The notes beneath the pieces were generated by a model. The model did not search any database, had not been told where the DNA came from, and saw nothing but the letters and a program-made list of their open reading frames with translations. From Escherichia phage teqhad, in the sequence record NC_054933.1: a stretch of 64,000 nt of DNA; one strand, given 5' to 3'. Positions 29,770 through 61,100 of this stretch are shown piece after piece. Position numbers and translations under genes: made by a program. How positions within the stretch are numbered: position 1 is the first letter of the stretch; every line of letters starts with the position of its first letter.

Positions 29770-29773
29770 CAAT

Positions 29774-29791
29774 GGGGACCTTTCGGTCCCC
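29774..29791. terminator. Bidirectional hairpin terminator between gene 54 and the convergent minus-strand block
   Basis: ggggacc-tttc-ggtcccc followed by T-rich run; lies between the two convergent stop codons. Confidence 0.55.
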
Positions 29792-29797
29792 ATATTT

Positions 29798-30088
29798 TTA
29801 TTTACGGAATGAAATAAAAGCAGCAACTGAAGCAACTAAACTGTCTTCAATATAAACCTCAATTTTTACCGGAGCTTCTGACTCAAATTTACCTGTTACT
29901 ATACCCTGAAAAATACTTTCAGTCTGTTCTGGCTTTGAAAAATTTTCAGAAGGAAAAATTCCGAACTTTTTATCTGTTCCAAAAATTTTAATAAATTCAT
30001 CGTAAACTGCTTCATTAAAAGCATTATCAGCAGGAATAACGCCTTCAACTACAAGTTCTTGACCTAAAAAGCGCAAAGAAGATTTCAT
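29798..30088 (-). CDS. Hypothetical protein (T4 alt.-3 region)
   Basis: 96 aa ORF; GAGGAA ribosome-binding site lies inside the 3' arm of the upstream hairpin element. Confidence 0.7.
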   Translation of the reverse strand: MKSSLRFLGQELVVEGVIPADNAFNEAVYDEFIKIFGTDKKFGIFPSENFSKPEQTESIFQGIVTGKFESEAPVKIEVYIEDSLVASVAAFISFRK

Positions 30089-30095
30089 TTTGTGT

Positions 30096-30149
30096 TCCTC
30101 ATGTTATGCCAGTAAGACTACTATAACACAACACGAGGGACTTGTAAAC
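30096..30149 (-). repeat. 54-bp promoter/hairpin element, copy 1 (51/54 identical to 45910..45963)
   Basis: Minus strand reads GTTTAC-N18-TATAGT; outer inverted repeat cctcatgtt/aacacgagg; 3' arm contains the ribosome-binding site of the downstream ORF. Confidence 0.6.
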
Positions 30150-32206
30150 TACATTTTGAACTTTTTAGACATTCCGTTGATGTTAACCAAAGAAGCCAAG
30201 ATTTGAGAAACTTCGTTTTCCTCTTCTTTTGATTCTTCTACAAGGAATTGATTAAATCCAGCCATTGGACGAACTTCACCAGTTTCCATTAGATGGTCGC
30301 CATCATATACCGATTCCTCTAATTGTTCAGAAGGAGGAACGATTGTACCTTCTATTAGATACTTGTTATAAGCAGTTTCTTTCATAAAGTACGTGCTCAC
30401 TTTATTAATCTTCAGTAAAATTCCACGCGGTAGAATAACTTCAGCTTCTGATGGAAATCCTGATAAATGACCTGGAACGATAACTTTGATTCGCTCAGCT
30501 CCTTTAATTACCATACCCACGCTAGTTTCAGCATCTTCATTAGCATATGTAGAATGACTACCCATATGCATCAAATCTTCTGCATCAACGGAACCTTCTC
30601 CTTCGCCAGAAAATACTGCGCCGGAATCATCTAGAGCCATATAGTTTTTACCGTGCTCACCGAAAATATTTGGTTTAAGCGATGTGGATACGAAGTTCTT
30701 GAAATAGAACATTTTGTTTTCAATATTATGACGCAAAGTTTTAAAGGTAACTTCTTGTCCACGGTAAAGTGTAGTTCCTGGAGGAAGAACTGAACCTTTA
30801 GCGAATGCAGAATCAAGCGTCTCGATGTGTTTAATAGCTCGTTCCATATATTCTTCACGGGTAGAATCTGGTTTACCCAAAAGGAACGAGTTCATTTCAA
30901 CATATGAATCTGCACAATAATCTTCAATTACGTCAGATTCAGCCTGAGTTAATCCTTTTGGAGTTACTTCAGTACTTGCATATTCATATGCCTGAGCGGC
31001 AGATTCATTAATCAATTTATAAATGCCATTCATGACAAATTGAATAATAGCTGTCTTTTCATCTGGCGTAGCTTTAGAACCTTTAGCTAAATCATTGACA
31101 ATTTTCTTAATAACATCAAAACTATTAGAAATATTAATATCAGCAAGATCGCTTAAAATTTTATCAGTTTTATAATCAAAGAATTCTTTATTCTTTAAAT
31201 ATTCTTGAGAACCTTGATATGTTATATCGCTCTGCAGCTTGATAGATGGATCGCGTAAACGTGCATGGGCCAATGCAATATGATTTCGGAAGTTTTCTAG
31301 TTCATAATCGTTAGATTTAAAACGAGAAGCACTTCTCATACCACCGATAGCTCCTTTGCTAAAGTTTGAACCAATCTGAATAACGCCAGAGTTCATCGGA
31401 CCTTCTGCTTTATATACCGGAACTTTAGATTCAAACTCTTGATATTTCTTAGCAGCGAAGCTATCACCCTGAAGTGAAGCATCAACAGTAGAATATTGAG
31501 CTTGTGCTGCTAATCGACGACTAATTTTAGTTTTCTGAATAACAGCTTGATCCGTGCGCTTATCATTTTCTAAAGCAATAGAAGCAGCAACAGCGACAGC
31601 TTTAGGAACAGCATTACCTGTTTTAACGTCTACATAAACATCACCAACCTTTGATTCAACTTTTGTGAATAACTCAGTTGAAATAGGAGGTACACCTGGA
31701 ATGTCTTCTAAATTGGCATTTTTACGGTAAACCATAATATATGCATATTTCTTATCATAGTCCCAGATTTCCTTTAAAAGAACATATCGACCTGCTCCTT
31801 TAGTACGTACTAAACGGTCAGCAATAACTTGCATTTGACGAGCTGCGCCATTTGTTTTACTTTTTAGTACGCGGAATAGGCATGCGTCGATTTTATACTG
31901 TTTCATTGTTTGAAGAGCAGTATCAAAAACAGCATTAATGACGCCAATTGGATTTCCACCCAAGTTTCTAAGCTTGACTAACGATAATTTCTCGTTGACA
32001 CCTATCATTACGATATGCATCATTTTGTCGCCTGGCTTAACGTTTTTATTTGTATCACCGCCAGAGGTGTATGTACAAAATCTAAATCCAGGAAGAACGC
32101 TTTCTTCACCGGCTTGAATAGCAAAAATTTGTGGTATTTTATGCTTAGGATTTAAGTTAACAACCGGCGCCGAAGCGCCGTCAAATAATTCTGTAATAAG
32201 TTCCAT
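30149..32206 (-). CDS. Alt-family NAD-protein ADP-ribosyltransferase paralog
   Basis: 685 aa; N-terminus MELITELFD shared with the neighbouring paralog; R/STS/ExE motifs present (LYRGQ, FVSTSLKP, SEAEVILPRG). Confidence 0.85.
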   Translation of the reverse strand: MELITELFDGASAPVVNLNPKHKIPQIFAIQAGEESVLPGFRFCTYTSGGDTNKNVKPGDKMMHIVMIGVNEKLSLVKLRNLGGNPIGVINAVFDTALQTMKQYKIDACLFRVLKSKTNGAARQMQVIADRLVRTKGAGRYVLLKEIWDYDKKYAYIMVYRKNANLEDIPGVPPISTELFTKVESKVGDVYVDVKTGNAVPKAVAVAASIALENDKRTDQAVIQKTKISRRLAAQAQYSTVDASLQGDSFAAKKYQEFESKVPVYKAEGPMNSGVIQIGSNFSKGAIGGMRSASRFKSNDYELENFRNHIALAHARLRDPSIKLQSDITYQGSQEYLKNKEFFDYKTDKILSDLADINISNSFDVIKKIVNDLAKGSKATPDEKTAIIQFVMNGIYKLINESAAQAYEYASTEVTPKGLTQAESDVIEDYCADSYVEMNSFLLGKPDSTREEYMERAIKHIETLDSAFAKGSVLPPGTTLYRGQEVTFKTLRHNIENKMFYFKNFVSTSLKPNIFGEHGKNYMALDDSGAVFSGEGEGSVDAEDLMHMGSHSTYANEDAETSVGMVIKGAERIKVIVPGHLSGFPSEAEVILPRGILLKINKVSTYFMKETAYNKYLIEGTIVPPSEQLEESVYDGDHLMETGEVRPMAGFNQFLVEESKEEENEVSQILASLVNINGMSKKFKM

Positions 32207-38660: not shown

Positions 38661-38728
38661 TTTTGTTCTCCGAGATGTTTAATTGCGGTACAGGTATATA
38701 ATATCATATCCTGTACCAAAGTAAACAA

Positions 38729-39061: not shown

Positions 39062-39148
39062 TTTATTCTCCTTTGTTTGTGTAAGATAATACTATCACAA
39101 AGGAACCATACTGTAAACAACTTTGTGCAATCTTTGGAAAATAAAAAA

Positions 39149-45058: not shown

Positions 45059-45408
45059 TTAGAAAGGTCCTGGATGTCTTCTGCGAACTTGTTGAAGGAG
45101 TTGTTGATTTGTTTTTCAACCAATCCTGGCTTATGAGCCACCACATCCGCCTTCTTTGCGTCTTTGCGCAGCTTTTCATTTTCACGCTCAATTGCAGCAA
45201 TTGATTCACGATTTTTATTATTCATTGCATCAATATAATTATATTGATTTTTTAAATCATTTAATGCTAAGGCGTTTTCATTGGCCGTTTTTGTAATTTC
45301 TACAACAGACGTTTCTAATCTTTCAATTTTATTTTTTAAAATTAAAGAAGTTCCGCCCAATGCAATTACAATTAATAACAAGCCTGCTGTCGTATTACTT
45401 AATTGCAT
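45055..45408 (-). CDS. Inner-membrane spanin (i-spanin, Rz-like)
   Basis: 117 aa; N-terminal TM helix (LLLIVIALGGTSLIL) followed by coiled-coil-rich periplasmic domain. Confidence 0.7.
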   Translation of the reverse strand: MQLSNTTAGLLLIVIALGGTSLILKNKIERLETSVVEITKTANENALALNDLKNQYNYIDAMNNKNRESIAAIERENEKLRKDAKKADVVAHKPGLVEKQINNSFNKFAEDIQDLSK

Positions 45409-45905
45409 AAAGTTTTAATAACCTCTATAATATCGTCTTGAGAAAGACCGTTAATTAAAATATGATGTTCCGCCGGAGATTTAGAAATTTTAAAGCATGC
45501 CGCAACATCTTCTGCCATATCTGATGCGCTACGATTTGGATTACTAATTCCAAGACGATGTTTTCCCGTTAAAGGATTAACGATAATATAGCATTTACAG
45601 CTATTGATATGAACATTAGGTTGAGTCTGATTAATGAACACTTCACAATCATACTTAGCGAGTTGATTTTCTAAAAAGACTTTCATCTCCTCAACCGCAT
45701 CAGGAAGCATATCACGGGCTTGCTCAAGACGACGATTTCGATATTCTTTAATGGTCGTTTTCCGCTTGACTTGCTTAGCTAAATCTTTCTTAAGATCGGT
45801 GATATATCCAACTCGACGATTTCCTTTGAATACAGAAATCCCATCTGTAGTATCACCGTATGCTTCAACGACCATTTCAGTAGTAATAAGCTGTAAATCC
45901 ATCAT
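45399..45905 (-). CDS. alc: Alc (transcription termination on cytosine-containing DNA)
   Basis: 168 aa ORF at the T4 alc position upstream of the spanin pair; ribosome-binding site embedded in the repeat element. Confidence 0.75.
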   Translation of the reverse strand: MMDLQLITTEMVVEAYGDTTDGISVFKGNRRVGYITDLKKDLAKQVKRKTTIKEYRNRRLEQARDMLPDAVEEMKVFLENQLAKYDCEVFINQTQPNVHINSCKCYIIVNPLTGKHRLGISNPNRSASDMAEDVAACFKISKSPAEHHILINGLSQDDIIEVIKTLCN

Positions 45906-45909
45906 AAAG

Positions 45910-45963
45910 TCCTCATGTTATGTCAGTAAGACTACTGTAACACAACATGAGGGACTTGTAAAC
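45910..45963 (-). repeat. 54-bp promoter/hairpin element, copy 2
   Basis: Minus strand GTTTAC-N18-TACAGT; perfect outer stem cctcatgtt/aacatgagg and inner stem cagta/tactg; GAGGA ribosome-binding site of alc in the 3' arm. Confidence 0.6.
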
Positions 45964-45966
45964 AGC

Positions 45967-47554
<1,588 letters not shown>

Positions 47555-58117: not shown

Positions 58118-61100
58118 ATGGCCGAGATTAAAAGAAAGTTCAGAGCAGAAGATGGTCTGGACGCAGGTGGTGATAAAATAATCAACGTAGCTTTAGCTGA
58201 TCGTACCGTAGGAACTGACGGTGTTAACGTTGATTACTTAATTCAAGAAAACACAGTTCAACAATACGATCCAACTCGTGGATATTTAAAAGATTTTGTA
58301 ATCATTTATGATAACCGCTTTTGGGCTGCTATAAATGATATTCCAAAACCGGCAGGAGCTTTTAATAGCGGACGCTGGAGAGCATTACGTACCGATGCTA
58401 ACTGGATTACGGTTTCATCTGGTTCATATCAATTAAAATCTGGTGAAGCAATTTCGGTTAACACTGCAGCTGGAAATGACATTACGTTTACTTTACCGTC
58501 TTCTCCAATTGATGGTGATACTATCGTTCTCCAAGATATTGGAGGAAAACCTGGAGTTAACCAAGTTTTAATTGTAGCTCCAGTGCAAAGTATTGTAAAC
58601 TTTAGAGGTGAACAGGTACGTTCAGTACTAATGACTCATCCAAAGTCACAGCTAGTTTTAATTTTTAGTAATCGTCTGTGGCAAATGTATGTTGCTGATT
58701 ATAGTAGAGAAGCTGTAATTGTAACACCAGCGAATACTTATCAAGCGCAATCAAATGATTTTATCGTACGTAGATTTACTTCTGCTGCACCGATAAATAT
58801 TAAACTTCCGAGATTTGCTAATCACGGCGATATTATTAATTTCGTCGATTTGGATAAATTAAACCCTCTTTATCATACAATTGTTACGACATACGATGAA
58901 ACGACATCAGTACAAGAAGTTGGAACTCATTCCATTGAAGGCCGTACATCGATTGACGGTTTCTTGATGTTTGATGATAATGAGAAATTGTGGAGATTGT
59001 TTGACGGGGATAGTAAAGCACGTTTACGTATCATAACGACTAATTCAAACATTCGTCCAAACGAAGAAGTTATGGTATTTGGTGCGAATAACGGAACAAT
59101 TCAAACAATTGAGCTTCAGCTTCCAACTAATATTTCTGTTGGTGATACTGTTAAAATTTCCATGAATTACATGAGAAAAGGACAAACAGTTAAAATCAAA
59201 GCTGCCGGTGAAGATAAAATTGCTTCTTCAGTTCAATTGCTGCAATTCCCAAAACGTTCAGAGTATCCGCCTGAAGCTGAGTGGGTTACAGTTCAAGAAT
59301 TAGTTTTTAACGGTGAAACTAATTATGTTCCGGTTTTACAACTTGCTTATATAGAAGATTCTGATGGAAAATACTGGGTTGTACAGCAAAACGTTCCAAC
59401 CGTAGAAAGAGTAGATTCTTTAAATGATTCTACTAGAGCAAGATTAGGCGTAATTGCTTTAGCTACACAAGCTCAAGCTAATGTCGATTTAGAAAATTCT
59501 CCGCAAAAAGAATTAGCAATTACTCCAGAAACGTTAGCTAATCGTACTGCTACTGAAACTCGCAGAGGTATTGCAAGAATAGCAACTACTGCTCAAGTGA
59601 ATCAGAACACCACATTCTCTTTTGCTGACGATATTATCATCACTCCTAAAAAGCTGAATGAAAGAACTGCTACAGAAACTCGCAGAGGTGTTGCTGAAAT
59701 TGCTACGCAGCAAGAAACTAATACAGGTACTGATGATACTACAATCATTACTCCTAAAAAGCTTCAAGCTCGCCAAGGTTCTGAGTCATTATCTGGTATT
59801 GTAACTTTTGTATCTACTGCAGGTGCTACTCCAGCTTCTAGCCGTGAATTAAATGGTACTAATGTTTATAATAAAAACACTAATAATTTAGTTGTTTCGC
59901 CTAAAGCACTGGATCAGTATAAAGCTACTCCAACGCAACAAGGTGCAGTAATTTTAGCAGTTGAAAGTGAAGTAATTGCTGGACAGAGTCAAGAAGGATG
60001 GGCAAATGCGGTTGTAACGCCAGAAACGTTACATAAAAAGACATCAACTGATGGAAGAATTGGTTTAATTGAAATTGCTACGCAAAGTGAAGTTAATACA
60101 GGAACTGATTATACTCGTGCAGTCACTCCTAAAACTTTAAATGACCGTAGAGCAACTGAAAGTTTAAGCGGTATAGCTGAAATTGCTACACAAGTTGAAT
60201 TCGACGCAGGCGTCGACGATACTCGTATCTCTACACCATTAAAAATTAAAACCAGATTTAATAGTACTGATCGTACTTCTGTTGTTGCTCTATCTGGATT
60301 AGTTGAATCAGGAACTCTCTGGGACCATTATACCCTTAATATTCTTGAAGCAAATGAGACACAGCGTGGTACACTTCGTGTAGCTACACAGGTTGAAGCT
60401 GCTGCAGGAACATTAGATAATGTTTTAATAACTCCTAAAAAGCTTTTAGGTACTAAATCTACCGAATCACAGGAAGGTGTTATTAAAGTTGCAACTCAGT
60501 CTGAAACTGTGACTGGAGCATCAGCAAATACTGCTGTATCTCCAAAAAATTTAAAATGGATTGTGCAGAGTGAACCTACCTGGGCAGCTACTACTGCGGT
60601 AAGAGGTTTTGTTAAAACTTCATCTGGTTCAATTACGTTCGTTGGTAATGATACAGTCGGTTCTACCCAAGATTTAGAACTGTATGAGAAAAATAGCTAT
60701 GCAATATCACCATATGAATTAAACCGTGTATTAGCAAATTATTTACCGTTAAAAGCAAAAGCTGCAGATAGTAATTTATTGGATGGTCTAGATTCATCTC
60801 AGTTCATTCGTAGGGATATTGCACAGACGGTTAATGGTTCACTAACCTTAACCCAACAAACGAATCTGAGTGCCCCTCTTGTATCATCTAGTACTGGTGA
60901 ATTTGGTGGTTCATTGGCCGCTAACTCAACATTTACTATCCGTAACACAGGAACTATGACGCCCCGTATCGTTTTCGAAAAAGGTCCTGCATCTGGTGCA
61001 AACCCGGCACAGCCAATGAGTATTCGTGTATGGGGTAACCAATTTGGTGGCGGTAGTGATACGACTCGTTCGACAGTGCTTGAAGTTGGCGATGAAACAT

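What the first reader, a model, noticed from the sequence alone, without database searches (positions are those of the whole stretch)
30096..30149. 54-bp element present twice (30096..30149 and 45910..45963): early-promoter-like motif fused to a hairpin that sequesters the downstream ribosome-binding site
The two copies are 51/54 identical yet precede unrelated genes (the 96-aa alt.-3-like ORF and alc) and each fills an entire intergenic gap. On the transcribed minus strand each reads GTTTAC-N18-TA(T/C)AGT, which resembles T4 early-promoter -35/-10 elements, followed by a compound stem-loop (outer stem cctcatgtt/aacatgagg, inner stem cagta/tactg). The 3' arm of the outer stem contains the GAGGA Shine-Dalgarno of the downstream gene. 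Read-through RNA from upstream would fold and occlude the ribosome-binding site; RNA initiated at the internal promoter would lack the 5' arm and be translatable. That logic is known for some T4 late genes but here appears as a duplicated portable cassette.
Basis: seen in the sequence. Interest (0 to 1): 0.55.

Follow-up and report, generated by a model that had tools for sequence, protein, structure and literature searches.

The report
Phage early promoter with ribosome-site lock
Two near-identical 54-base cassettes in this T4-type phage each combine an early promoter with a hairpin that hides the next gene's ribosome-binding site on RNA read through from upstream, and comparison across related phages shows the hairpin is under selection and the design recurs at about a third of T4 early promoters.

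Summary
Two copies (30096-30149 and 45910-45963, minus strand) are 51/54 identical; none is expected by chance. The window is a Tequatrovirus, and about 500 sequenced relatives, including T4, carry exactly two copies, upstream of alt.-3 and alc.

Each copy reads TTTACA-N17-TA(T/C)AGT with a TG extended -10. Each folds into a 13+5 bp hairpin (-23 and -26 kcal/mol) whose 5' arm is the promoter spacer and whose 3' arm contains the Shine-Dalgarno (SD) GAGGA. There is no T-run, so it is not an intrinsic terminator.

The main new evidence is comparative. The rnlA-alc gap in at least 8 other T4-like lineages has the same layout, with different but mutually complementary arm sequences. Cognate spacer/leader pairing averages -17.3 kcal/mol against -10.0 ± 0.8 for permuted pairs (0 of 20,000 permutations).

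In T4, 9 of 27 early-promoter-adjacent genes show this read-through-specific SD occlusion, against 5 of 102 other genes. Those five are genes 55, I-TevII, 49, e and I-TevI, which include the textbook late-promoter cases.

The element belongs to the published class of PeSL-type promoter/stem-loop cassettes. Its SD-locking reading is an early-promoter variant of the known T4 e/49/I-TevI logic.

The parts
30096..30149 (-). Copy A of the 54-nt cassette, upstream of alt.-3
30143..30148 (-). Copy A -35 hexamer TTTACA
   Evidence: 10/12 match to sigma-70 consensus, spacer 17
30120..30125 (-). Copy A -10 hexamer TATAGT, preceded by TG (extended -10). Predicted start site is the A at 30113.
   Evidence: the start site is inferred from spacing only
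30126..30138 (-). Copy A outer 5' arm CCUCGUGUUGUGU (anti-SD), entirely inside the promoter spacer
30110..30123 (-). Copy A inner stem-loop UAGUA-GUCU-UACUG; its 5' half overlaps the -10 hexamer
30097..30109 (-). Copy A outer 3' arm GCAUAACAUGAGG, containing the SD (GAGGA, 30096-30100)
29798..30088 (-). alt.-3 (96 aa), the gene served by copy A
30149..32206 (-). Upstream 685-aa Alt-like ADP-ribosyltransferase paralogue. Its stop codon overlaps the first base of copy A. It is the presumed source of read-through RNA.
45910..45963 (-). Copy B of the cassette, upstream of alc
45957..45962 (-). Copy B -35 hexamer TTTACA
45934..45939 (-). Copy B -10 hexamer TACAGT with TG. Predicted start site is the A at 45927.
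45940..45952 (-). Copy B outer 5' arm CCUCAUGUUGUGU (anti-SD) in the spacer. Pairing extends further, to AAGUC/GACUU.
45911..45923 (-). Copy B outer 3' arm ACAUAACAUGAGG, containing the SD (GAGGA, 45910-45914)
45399..45905 (-). alc (inhibitor of host transcription). The T4-equivalent start is the second ATG, at 45902.
45967..47091 (-). rnlA (gene 63), upstream of copy B. The end coordinate is set by homology to the 1125-nt T4 gene.
39089..39117 (-). A third window promoter of the same design, for gene 30.8: TTTACA-N17-TAGTAT, with spacer TCCTTTG pairing with CAAAGGA of the SD

Best explanation
Each copy is a self-contained early-gene expression cassette of the T4 type: a strong sigma-70 early promoter, a short leader and an SD. 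The 17-nt spacer between -35 and -10 doubles as an anti-SD sequence.

Proposed mechanism. RNA started at the cassette's own promoter begins about 7 nt past the -10. It therefore lacks the anti-SD arm and has an open ribosome-binding site, so Alc or Alt.-3 is made in the first minutes of infection. RNA arriving from upstream (from rnlA, or from the alt genes, which are transcribed later) contains both arms and folds into an 18-bp hairpin that buries the SD. The gene is then carried on that RNA but not translated. The net effect is to tie translation of the gene to use of its own early promoter, which limits synthesis to the immediate-early period.

Origin of the two copies. They are near-identical because such cassettes are exchanged by homologous recombination or gene conversion between early promoters. 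The alc copy is the ancient one. The alt.-3 copy is specific to Tequatrovirus.

Shown: the repeat, the promoter match, the hairpin, its position relative to the promoter, the co-variation, and the conservation. Inferred: the start site, that read-through RNA exists and folds this way in vivo, and that translation is blocked.
For: 1. Promoter. TTTACA-N17-TATAGT / TACAGT with an extended -10. This matches the PST/T4 early-promoter consensus TTTACW-N17-TAYWAT apart from the G at position 5 of the -10 hexamer (Comeau 2014).

2. Expression in T4. alt.-3 and alc are early RNA and early protein. alt is middle RNA and late protein, alt.-1/.-2 are middle RNA, and rnlA is early RNA and late protein (PMC9697503 supplements).

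3. Hairpin. z = -4.4 and -4.75. RNA starting downstream of the -10 is unstructured.

4. SD opening energy. 11.3 / 8.0 kcal/mol for read-through RNA against 2.2 / 0.5 kcal/mol for promoter-initiated RNA.

5. No T-run follows the stem in the window or in any of the 17 alc-locus sequence types, and the terminator scan does not flag it.

6. Co-variation at the alc locus. Karam-, Moon-, Jiaoda-, Dhaka- and Marfavirus and several IMG/VR lineages keep TTTACA-spacer-TAnnnT-leader, with arms such as TCTCCATTTGGTT/AACCAAATGGAGA, TCCTCATCAG/CTGATGAGGA and CCTCTCGTTTTTG/CAAAAACGAGAGG.
   - Cognate duplexes average -17.25 kcal/mol against -10.04 ± 0.84 for permuted pairs, with 0 of 20,000 permutations reaching the observed value.
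   - All 17 spacer positions show at least 2 canonical pair types.
   - The SD core is fully paired in 12 of 15 SD-occluding types and all but one nucleotide is paired in the other 3.
   - RNAalifold on a plain MAFFT alignment finds 5 of 6 pairs with compensatory changes.

7. Constraint. Within Tequatrovirus the alc copy differs at 2.5% of positions, against 10.9% at flanking 4-fold degenerate sites.

8. Generality and a positive control in T4. Read-through-specific occlusion (ddG >= 6 kcal/mol) is seen in 9 of 27 early-promoter-adjacent genes against 5 of 102 others (Fisher p = 2e-4). The five 'others' are genes 55, I-TevII, 49, e and I-TevI, which include the known late-promoter-in-hairpin cases.

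9. Portability.
Against: - No experimental 5'-end, structure-probing or translation data for these two sites could be read. The T4 dRNA-seq start-site table of bioRxiv 2024.04.04.588121 is not held.
- Five alc-locus sequence types lack SD occlusion: Mosigvirus, a Providencia phage, L292, L286/L301 and L302. Their hairpins stop 0-3 nt before the SD, sit inside the spacer, or are absent, so the lock is dispensable.
- The alt.-3 copy evolves at about the neutral rate (5.7% against 5.4% at 4-fold sites). Its inner stem decays in REP4, LYE-01 and ZN18, although the SD-covering outer stem persists (9.4-14.1 kcal/mol).
- In a 60-nt gap, a long stem anchored in the spacer will tend to overlap the SD for geometric reasons. 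Selection could therefore act on the hairpin for another purpose.
- The PeSL authors measured a terminator-like drop in reporter expression for one RB49-type stem-loop and read it as termination.
- In copy A the promoter-initiated RNA still pairs the SD weakly with codons 3-5.
Confidence: 0.62

Rival explanations
1. The stem-loop is a transcription terminator or attenuator. It stops RNA polymerase coming from the upstream gene just before the next promoter fires, which is the published reading of PeSL stem-loops.
For: Arbiol et al. 2010 placed one RB49/phi1 PeSL stem-loop between a strong promoter and lacZ and saw a drop comparable to rrnB T1. The hairpin is intergenic and very stable.
Against: No T/U run follows the stem in either window copy or in any of the 17 alc-locus types; the following bases are A-rich SD-to-ATG spacers. 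The terminator scan does not flag either hairpin, although it does find the true bidirectional terminator at 29772-29793. The stem base is consistently the SD, which a terminator does not need. The lacZ assay in Arbiol 2010 does not separate termination from translational occlusion or RNA decay.
Confidence: 0.15
2. The hairpin is an RNA processing or stability element. It would be either an RNase III-type cleavage site separating upstream and downstream messages, or a 3'-end hairpin protecting the upstream mRNA from exonucleases.
For: The duplex is long (13-17 bp plus an inner stem) and conserved by co-variation. T4 early mRNAs are heavily processed (PMC3014915).
Against: Nothing specific points to RNase III, and no Rfam family matches. 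This reading does not explain why the SD core is the invariant base of the stem, nor why the 5' arm always lies upstream of the start site. The same occlusion metric picks out the proven translational cases e, 49 and I-TevI.
Confidence: 0.1
3. The inverted repeat acts at the DNA level. It would either tune promoter melting or supercoiling response around the -10, or serve as a recombination hotspot, with the RNA structure being a by-product.
For: The repeat brackets the -10 and the start site. PeSLs are implicated in recombination and mini-circle formation. Leader and promoter modules are clearly exchanged between loci.
Against: G.U/U.G wobble positions (a G.U-to-A-U and two U.G-to-C-G/U-A changes between the window copies; several) pair in RNA but not as DNA cruciforms. 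The arm sequences differ between promoters, so no common protein site exists. Recombination needs identity between copies, not self-complementarity within a copy.
Confidence: 0.08
4. The similarity only reflects the extended T4 early-promoter consensus, and the hairpin is incidental.
For: -35, TG, -10 and a CTTACAC-like +1 region are shared by many T4-type early promoters, and GUGU/ACAC from these consensus pieces contributes to the inner stem.
Against: The non-consensus 17-nt spacer and the leader are also identical (51-54 of 54). Other T4 early promoters differ throughout the spacer. The arms co-vary. The shuffle z-scores are -4.4 to -6.
Confidence: 0.02

Closest known systems
PeSL (promoter-early stem-loop) cassettes of T4-like phages (Arbiol et al. 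2010, PMC2839356; Comeau et al. 2014, PMC4122927); T-even IP-locus analogues (Repoila 1994, as cited there)
   Same: An intergenic, roughly 50-60 nt composite of a sigma-70-type early promoter, a stem-loop, the SD and the start codon. The stem-loop can lie between or over the -35/-10 boxes. The cassette is repeated in the genome, shared between unrelated genes and exchanged by recombination. The PST/T4 consensus TTTACW-N17-TAYWAT fits apart from the G at position 5 of the -10 hexamer.
   Different: PeSL stem-loops were interpreted as terminators or attenuators. In PST they are drawn just upstream of the promoter. Pairing of the spacer with the SD is not described in the text available to me. 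Here there are only two copies per genome, and they flank conserved genes (alc, alt.-3) rather than ORFans in hyperplastic regions.
T4 late-promoter-in-hairpin translational control of e, soc, 49 and I-TevI (also I-TevII/III and Aeh1 mobE) (reviewed in PMC3014915)
   Same: The SD and/or AUG is buried in a helix in long read-through transcripts. A promoter inside the 5' part of the helix yields a shorter RNA that lacks the inhibitory arm and is translated. My occlusion metric scores both groups alike.
   Different: In the known cases the internal promoter is a late promoter (TATAAATA), so the gene is silent early and active late. Here the internal promoter is an early sigma-70-type promoter, so the polarity in time is reversed: active immediately, silent on later read-through.
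Anti-SD 'insulator' motifs inside E. coli sigma-54 promoters (Levy et al. 2017, bioRxiv 10.1101/086108)
   Same: A CT-rich motif within the promoter pairs with the downstream SD and silences translation from read-through transcripts, while the promoter's own transcripts escape.
   Different: Those motifs are 3-5 nt, lie within 25 nt of the SD and are in sigma-54 promoters of the host. Here the stems are 9-17 bp, occupy the sigma-70 spacer and are in a phage.

Membership tests
PeSL-type cassette | Sigma-70-like early promoter (-35, about 17 nt, -10) | tested here: met
   TTTACA-N17-TATAGT / TACAGT with an extended -10. Activity was not measured.
PeSL-type cassette | Stable stem-loop adjacent to or overlapping the promoter boxes | tested here: met
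   -23 / -26 kcal/mol, z about -4.5. The 5' arm lies in the spacer and the stem spans the -10.
PeSL-type cassette | SD and start codon of the downstream gene at the 3' end; intergenic position | tested here: met
   GAGGA lies 7 nt before the ATG, and the element fills the gap.
PeSL-type cassette | Many copies, concentrated in hyperplastic regions next to ORFans and indels | tested here: inconclusive
   This exact sequence occurs only twice per genome. However, T4 has about 30 cassettes of the same build with partly shared modules. An indel (alt.-2 intact versus decayed) does abut copy A.
PeSL-type cassette | Stem-loop acts as a transcription terminator or attenuator | not testable with these tools
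   By sequence there is no T-run. A functional assay is needed.
PeSL-type cassette | Mediates recombination or module exchange | tested here: met
   The same cassette sits at two loci. A related one lies at the ndd region in Mosigvirus. The alc leader is replaced by the alt.-3 leader in IMG/VR contig 2706795356 but not in its sister contig 641509422.
T4 promoter-in-hairpin RBS sequestration (e/soc/49/I-TevI type) | SD/AUG paired in the read-through transcript | tested here: met
   Opening cost is 8-11 kcal/mol. The SD core is fully or almost fully paired in all 15 SD-occluding alc-locus types.
T4 promoter-in-hairpin RBS sequestration (e/soc/49/I-TevI type) | A promoter lies within the 5' arm, so the proximal transcript lacks the inhibitory strand | tested here: met
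   The 5' arm is the spacer, so any start from this promoter is downstream of it. The start site itself is predicted, not mapped.
T4 promoter-in-hairpin RBS sequestration (e/soc/49/I-TevI type) | The internal promoter is a late promoter (TATAAATA) | tested here: not met
   There is no TATAAATA; the promoter is of the early sigma-70 type. The element works like this family but is a distinct variant.
T4 promoter-in-hairpin RBS sequestration (e/soc/49/I-TevI type) | Demonstrated reduction of translation from long transcripts | not testable with these tools
   Needs reporter fusions or ribosome profiling.
Sigma-54 promoter anti-SD insulators | Short CT-rich motif within 25 nt upstream of the SD, inside a sigma-54 promoter | tested here: not met
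   The promoter is sigma-70 type, the arm is 13 nt and lies about 26-38 nt upstream of the SD. This is a mechanistic analogue only.

The most novel reading that the evidence does not exclude
Spacer-embedded anti-SD arms are a general, previously unlisted layer of T4 temporal control. Roughly a third of early promoters (for motB.2, nrdC.8, regB, denV, e.8, alt.-3, 30.8, alc and the ndd.4 region; modB shows the same occlusion but not through its spacer) would license translation only of transcripts they start themselves. Synthesis of these proteins would then stop when early promoters shut off, even though the genes continue to be transcribed by read-through and from middle promoters. This would be the mirror image of the e/49/I-TevI late lock, and it would reinterpret the PeSL stem-loop as a translational insulator rather than a terminator.
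Probability: 0.45. Interest if true: 0.65.

Novelty: new variant of a known kind. Interest (0 to 1): 0.5.

Why it matters
T4 is the reference system for temporal gene control. Its reviews list RNA-structure locks on ribosome-binding sites only for a handful of late-expressed genes (e, soc, 49, homing endonucleases).

If the early-promoter version is real, three things follow:
- It explains how immediate-early proteins such as Alc and RegB can be limited to the first minutes even though their genes sit inside long delayed-early and middle transcripts.
- It gives a function to the stem-loops of the mobile promoter cassettes (PeSLs) that lack terminator features.
- It shows that a promoter's 'non-informative' spacer can be under strong selection for an RNA-level role.

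It is also directly testable with existing T4 dRNA-seq data and simple reporter constructs. It offers a compact natural design (about 55 nt) for making a gene's translation depend on which promoter made the RNA.

Tried and rejected
1. Intrinsic terminator. Rejected by sequence: no T-run, and the scan does not flag it.

2. Known RNA family. No Rfam match at gathering score anywhere in the window, and only noise at E <= 1 around the copies.

3. Consensus-only similarity. Rejected.

4. Loose pattern scans. Only about 50 of 260 matches had a -10 at the right distance.

5. A single-protein locus search with Alc found only close relatives. An alignment query was needed.

6. A plain MAFFT alignment puts the arms of different lineages out of register, so RNAalifold recovers only 6 pairs. 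I therefore used cognate versus non-cognate duplex energies and spacer-anchored pair counts in Python. I did not build a covariance model.

7. Literature.
   - No paper in the held library contains the element's sequence.
   - The T4 GenBank records held carry no promoter features at these sites.
   - The T4 start-site and NAD-RNA tables of bioRxiv 2024.04.04.588121 are not held. Only alc qPCR primers are visible there, which suggests but does not show that alc RNA was a +1A NAD-RNA candidate.
   - Miller et al. 2003 (PMC150520) is not held, so I could not check whether these two promoters are in the classical early-promoter list.
   - One literature search was wasted on too-general terms.

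8. Concerted evolution as the sole reason for identity. Not supported. In REP4, LYE-01 and ZN18, copy A has diverged while copy B has not.
Full report
**1. The observation**

They are 51/54 identical. Similarity begins exactly at GTTTAC and ends exactly at GAGGA, and the flanks do not align. A search allowing three mismatches finds only these two sites, with 0 expected in 100 dinucleotide shuffles. Among the direct-repeat families in the window this is the only high-identity intergenic pair. The other families shown are coding-sequence repeats or low-identity matches, including the alt paralogues and a repeat block at about 59.5-60.4 kb. Copy A fills the gap between a 685-aa Alt-like ORF and the 96-aa alt.-3 ORF. 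Copy B fills the gap between rnlA and alc. The two downstream proteins share no similarity.

**2. Where the window comes from**

The window is a Tequatrovirus: 99.6% identical to phage teqsoen and 97-99% to hundreds of T4-like coliphages. The RB32 record annotates alt.-2 / alt.-3 / 54 at this spot. The element is not peculiar to this isolate. A 74-nt query around copy A hits 577 phage records with 1074 places. A query around copy B hits 498 records with 995 places, which is two per Tequatrovirus genome. T4 itself has both copies, at NC_000866 123040-123093 (alt.-3) and 136283-136336 (alc), differing at 1 of 54 positions. One IMG/VR genome has two identical copies.

**3. Anatomy**

- Promoter. 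The sigma-70 scan aligns the promoter as TTTACA-N17-TATAGT (10/12) for copy A and TTTACA-N17-TACAGT (9/12) for copy B. Both have a TG extended -10. This matches the early-promoter consensus TTTACW-N17-TAYWAT published for the PST/T4 pair, apart from the G at position 5 of the -10 hexamer.
- Hairpin. As RNA, the element folds into a 13-bp stem, a 2-nt bulge, a 5-bp stem and a GUCU loop. MFE is -23.0 kcal/mol (copy A) and -26.1 kcal/mol (copy B), z = -4.4 and -4.75, with 0 of 200 shuffles as stable.
- Position of the arms. The outer 5' arm (CCUC[G/A]UGUUGUGU) is the promoter spacer. The inner 5' arm overlaps the -10. The outer 3' arm ends in the SD (GAGG). Any transcript started by this promoter, predicted at the A at 30113 / 45927, therefore lacks the 5' arm. 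Such RNAs are essentially unstructured (-2.2 and -3.2 kcal/mol, z about 0).
- Energetics. Opening the SD costs 11.3 / 8.0 kcal/mol in read-through RNA against 2.2 / 0.5 kcal/mol in promoter-initiated RNA.
- Not a terminator. No T-run follows the stem, and the terminator scan does not flag it. The same scan does find the true bidirectional terminator at 29772-29793.
- No Rfam family matches.

**4. Comparative evidence at the alc locus (the decisive part)**

The order rnlA, a 58-63 nt gap, then alc is conserved in Karamvirus, Moonvirus, Jiaodavirus, Mosigvirus, Dhakavirus, Marfavirus, a Providencia phage and many 155-177 kb IMG/VR contigs. In nearly all of them the gap is TTTACA-N16/17-TAnnnT followed by a leader and the SD.

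In about 12 of 17 distinct sequence types, the bases immediately 3' of the -35 form an anti-SD arm that pairs with an SD-containing 3' arm. The arm sequences differ between lineages but stay mutually complementary:

| 5' arm (spacer) | 3' arm (contains SD) |
|---|---|
| TCTCCATTTGGTT | AACCAAATGGAGA |
| TCCTCATCAG | CTGATGAGGA |
| TCCTCATTTTGTTG | CAACAAAATGAGGA |
| CCTCTCGTTTTTG | CAAAAACGAGAGG |
| CCTCGTTTG | CAAACGAGG |
| TCCTCATTTCGTT | AACGAAATGAGGA |
| TCTCCTCAT | ATGAGGAGA |

Tests on these sequences:
- Across 16 representative types, cognate spacer/leader duplex energy averages -17.25 kcal/mol. Spacers permuted among leaders give -10.04 ± 0.84 kcal/mol, and 0 of 20,000 permutations reach the observed value. 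Shuffled spacers give -6.6 kcal/mol.
- Anchored on spacer position, all 17 positions show at least two canonical pair types. The SD core is fully paired in 12 of the 15 SD-occluding types and all but one nucleotide is paired in the other three.
- Even a plain MAFFT/RNAalifold run, which mis-registers several lineages, returns 6 pairs, 5 of them with compensatory double changes.
- Within Tequatrovirus the alc copy differs at 2.5% of positions, against 10.9% at flanking 4-fold degenerate sites. The whole 54 nt, including the spacer, is therefore under purifying selection.

Exceptions exist. L292, L286/L301 and the Providencia phage have 11-bp hairpins that span the -10 but stop 0-3 nt short of the SD. 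Mosigvirus has only a small hairpin inside the spacer. L302 has none.

**5. The alt.-3 copy is younger and less constrained**

Alt.-3 orthologues in other T4-like lineages have their own promoter: GTTTACAA..CCACAaggaTGTGG..TACTAT..ACATGAGGA. There is no spacer-SD pairing, and SD opening costs only 0.6-6.4 kcal/mol. In Tequatrovirus the alt.-3 copy diverges at about the neutral rate (5.7% against 5.4% at 4-fold sites). In REP4, LYE-01 and ZN18 the -10 has moved to TATAAT and the inner stem is broken. In SCS4, three 5'-arm transitions all preserve pairing. Every variant still keeps the SD-covering outer stem, at 9.4-14.1 kcal/mol. The alc locus is therefore the ancestral home, and the alt.-3 copy arose by transfer or conversion in the Tequatrovirus lineage.

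**6. Portability**

- Mosigviruses carry a related cassette at a third locus, between ndd.1 and ndd. It has the same -35, the same TATAGTAGTCYTACTG and the same AACATGAGGAACACAAAATG as copy A. Its 5' arm is different and gives a 10-12 bp hairpin over the -10, with a G-C to A-U compensatory change between isolates.
- In IMG/VR contig 2706795356 the alc leader (CCTTACACAAACATGAGGAGAACATTATGAA) is identical to that genome's alt.-3 leader. Its sister contig 641509422 has a different alc leader. This is a second, independent exchange between the same two loci.
- The same leader also serves a third gene in another contig (L056).

**7. Generality in T4, with a positive control**

I scanned the minus strand of T4 (1-77 kb and 122-169 kb). 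I found 30 TT[TG]ACN-N16-18-TAnnnT promoters directly upstream of an SD plus start codon. In 13 of them the spacer/leader duplex has z <= -4.

- Large read-through-specific SD occlusion is seen for motB.2, nrdC.8, regB, denV, e.8, alt.-3, 30.8, alc and the ndd.4 region, and for modB (there not via the spacer).
- The dmd, mobD.2, ipII, ipI and 30.7 promoters have hairpins over the -10 that do not reach the SD.

As a control I computed, for 129 minus-strand gene starts, the extra SD-opening cost contributed by 80 nt against 24 nt of upstream context. It is >= 6 kcal/mol in 9 of 27 promoter-adjacent genes and in 5 of 102 others (Fisher p = 2e-4; Mann-Whitney p = 0.0017). The five 'others' are genes 55, I-TevII, 49, e and I-TevI. 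Of these, e, 49 and I-TevI are experimentally established late-promoter-in-hairpin cases, and I-TevII is a predicted one (PMC3014915). The metric therefore recovers known positives and little else.

**8. Expression context in T4 (published data)**

In time-resolved transcriptomics and proteomics (PMC9697503 supplements):

| Gene | RNA class | Protein class |
|---|---|---|
| alt.-3 | early | early |
| alc | early | early |
| alt | middle | late |
| alt.-1 / alt.-2 | middle | not classified |
| rnlA | early | late |
| denA | middle | late |

Both cassettes thus sit at a boundary where a later-acting gene runs, without a terminator, into an immediate-early gene. That is the situation in which an insulator against read-through translation would be useful. 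This is consistent with the model but is not a test of it.

**9. Mechanism, with shown and inferred steps marked**

- Shown: the repeat; the promoter-like sequence; the hairpin and its stability; the 5' arm lying upstream of any start from this promoter; the SD in the 3' arm; the lack of terminator features; the co-variation and purifying selection at alc; the recurrence at other T4 early promoters.
- Inferred: the promoter fires early at about +7 from the -10; read-through RNA reaches the cassette and folds as predicted in vivo; the fold blocks 30S binding; the benefit is restriction of Alc and Alt.-3 synthesis to the immediate-early window.
- Rivals: a terminator/attenuator role (the PeSL authors' reading), an RNA processing or stability role, and a DNA-level role. 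These are not excluded and are not mutually exclusive. However, none of them explains why the SD is the constant base of the stem and why the partner arm always lies upstream of the start site.

**10. Relation to what is known**

- The cassette type is published. PeSLs (promoter-early stem-loops) are described as mobile regulatory cassettes in RB49/phi1, PST/T4 and nt-1/KVP40. Their stem-loops are placed between or over the promoter boxes, and the SD and start codon sit at the 3' end. The window's pair passes the structural criteria. The copy-number and hyperplastic-region criterion is only loosely met.
- The RBS-lock logic is also published, but only for late promoters inside hairpins (e, soc, 49, I-TevI and others). 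A host analogue is the short anti-SD motifs in sigma-54 promoters.
- What I could not find in the held literature is the early-promoter version, in which the sigma-70 spacer itself is the anti-SD arm, or its conservation at alc. Miller et al. 2003 and the classical promoter catalogues are not held. I therefore cannot say whether these two promoters are formally listed. The T4 record's naming style (Pe133295) suggests they would be Pe~123.06 and Pe~136.30.

**11. Verdict**

The element is a new variant of two known kinds: a PeSL cassette and the T4 promoter-in-hairpin translational lock. Interest is moderate. The components are familiar and the element is present in the best-studied phage. Even so, the co-variation at alc and the recurrence at about a third of T4 early promoters point to an unlisted general layer of early-gene control that existing data could test quickly.

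Noticed in passing
window 30149-32206 (-): An intact 685-aa second Alt-like ADP-ribosyltransferase gene sits where T4 has only the decayed remnants alt.-1 and alt.-2. REP4, LYE-01 and ZN18 also have the intact paralogue, so T4 is the degenerate state at this locus.
   Followed up: partly
window 29772-29793: A perfect 9-bp GC-rich hairpin with T-runs on both strands forms a bidirectional intrinsic terminator between convergent genes 54 (+) and alt.-3 (-).
   Followed up: no
window 39089-39117 and 38698-38725 (-); T4 130309 and 129917: The promoters of genes 30.8 and 30.7. The 30.8 promoter has an anti-SD spacer (TCCTTTG/CAAAGGA; read-through against own-transcript SD opening 9.9 against 0.4 kcal/mol in T4) and is preceded by a classical terminator. 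The 30.7 promoter has an 8-bp hairpin (GGTACAGG/CCTGTACC) spanning the -10 only.
   Followed up: yes
T4 NC_000866 20611 (dmd) and 57989 (mobD.2), minus strand (L306, L307): Another near-duplicate early-promoter cassette pair in T4: TTTACAAG(C/T)TGACAAGA(C/T)TATGGTATAGTA(G/A)TCTTGTC. A compensatory change (AGACT/AGTCT to AGATT/AATCT) occurs in a hairpin that spans the -10.
   Followed up: partly
T4 62796 (regB), 65412 (denV), 8217 (motB.2), 53942 (nrdC.8), 166806 (ndd.4 region): Each of these early promoters has a 10-13 bp spacer arm complementary to its own SD (duplex -18 to -23 kcal/mol, z -4.9 to -6.8). For regB the buried GGAG is also the RegB autocleavage site. At 166806 the SD-backed ATG (166749) lies 15 nt downstream of the annotated ndd.4 start.
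   Followed up: partly
L278, L279, L303 (IMG/VR contigs of about 170 kb) and phage UPEC01 (H106): The alc match spans about 740 nt, or is split into two pieces, instead of about 500 nt. This suggests an insertion inside alc in some T4-like phages. In the three IMG/VR contigs the rnlA-alc gap lacks the standard TTTACA-N17-TAnnnT motif; the UPEC01 gap was not examined.
   Followed up: no
MG010123.1 31824-31877 (Staphylococcus phage SAJK-IND, 32 kb): This record carries the T4-type cassette at 94% identity near its end. It is most likely a chimeric or contaminated assembly.
   Followed up: no
many loci: T4-like early promoters share GTG(T/A/G) just before the -10 and a (C)TTACAC(A)AAC-like motif around +1. 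These two consensus pieces are complementary (GUGU/ACAC) and supply the inner part of many of the hairpins, so part of the stem comes for free with the promoter.
   Followed up: partly
window 59519-60444 (+): Degenerate 108/120-nt coding repeats (families D1, D3, D6 in the repeat scan); the gene containing them was not identified.
   Followed up: no
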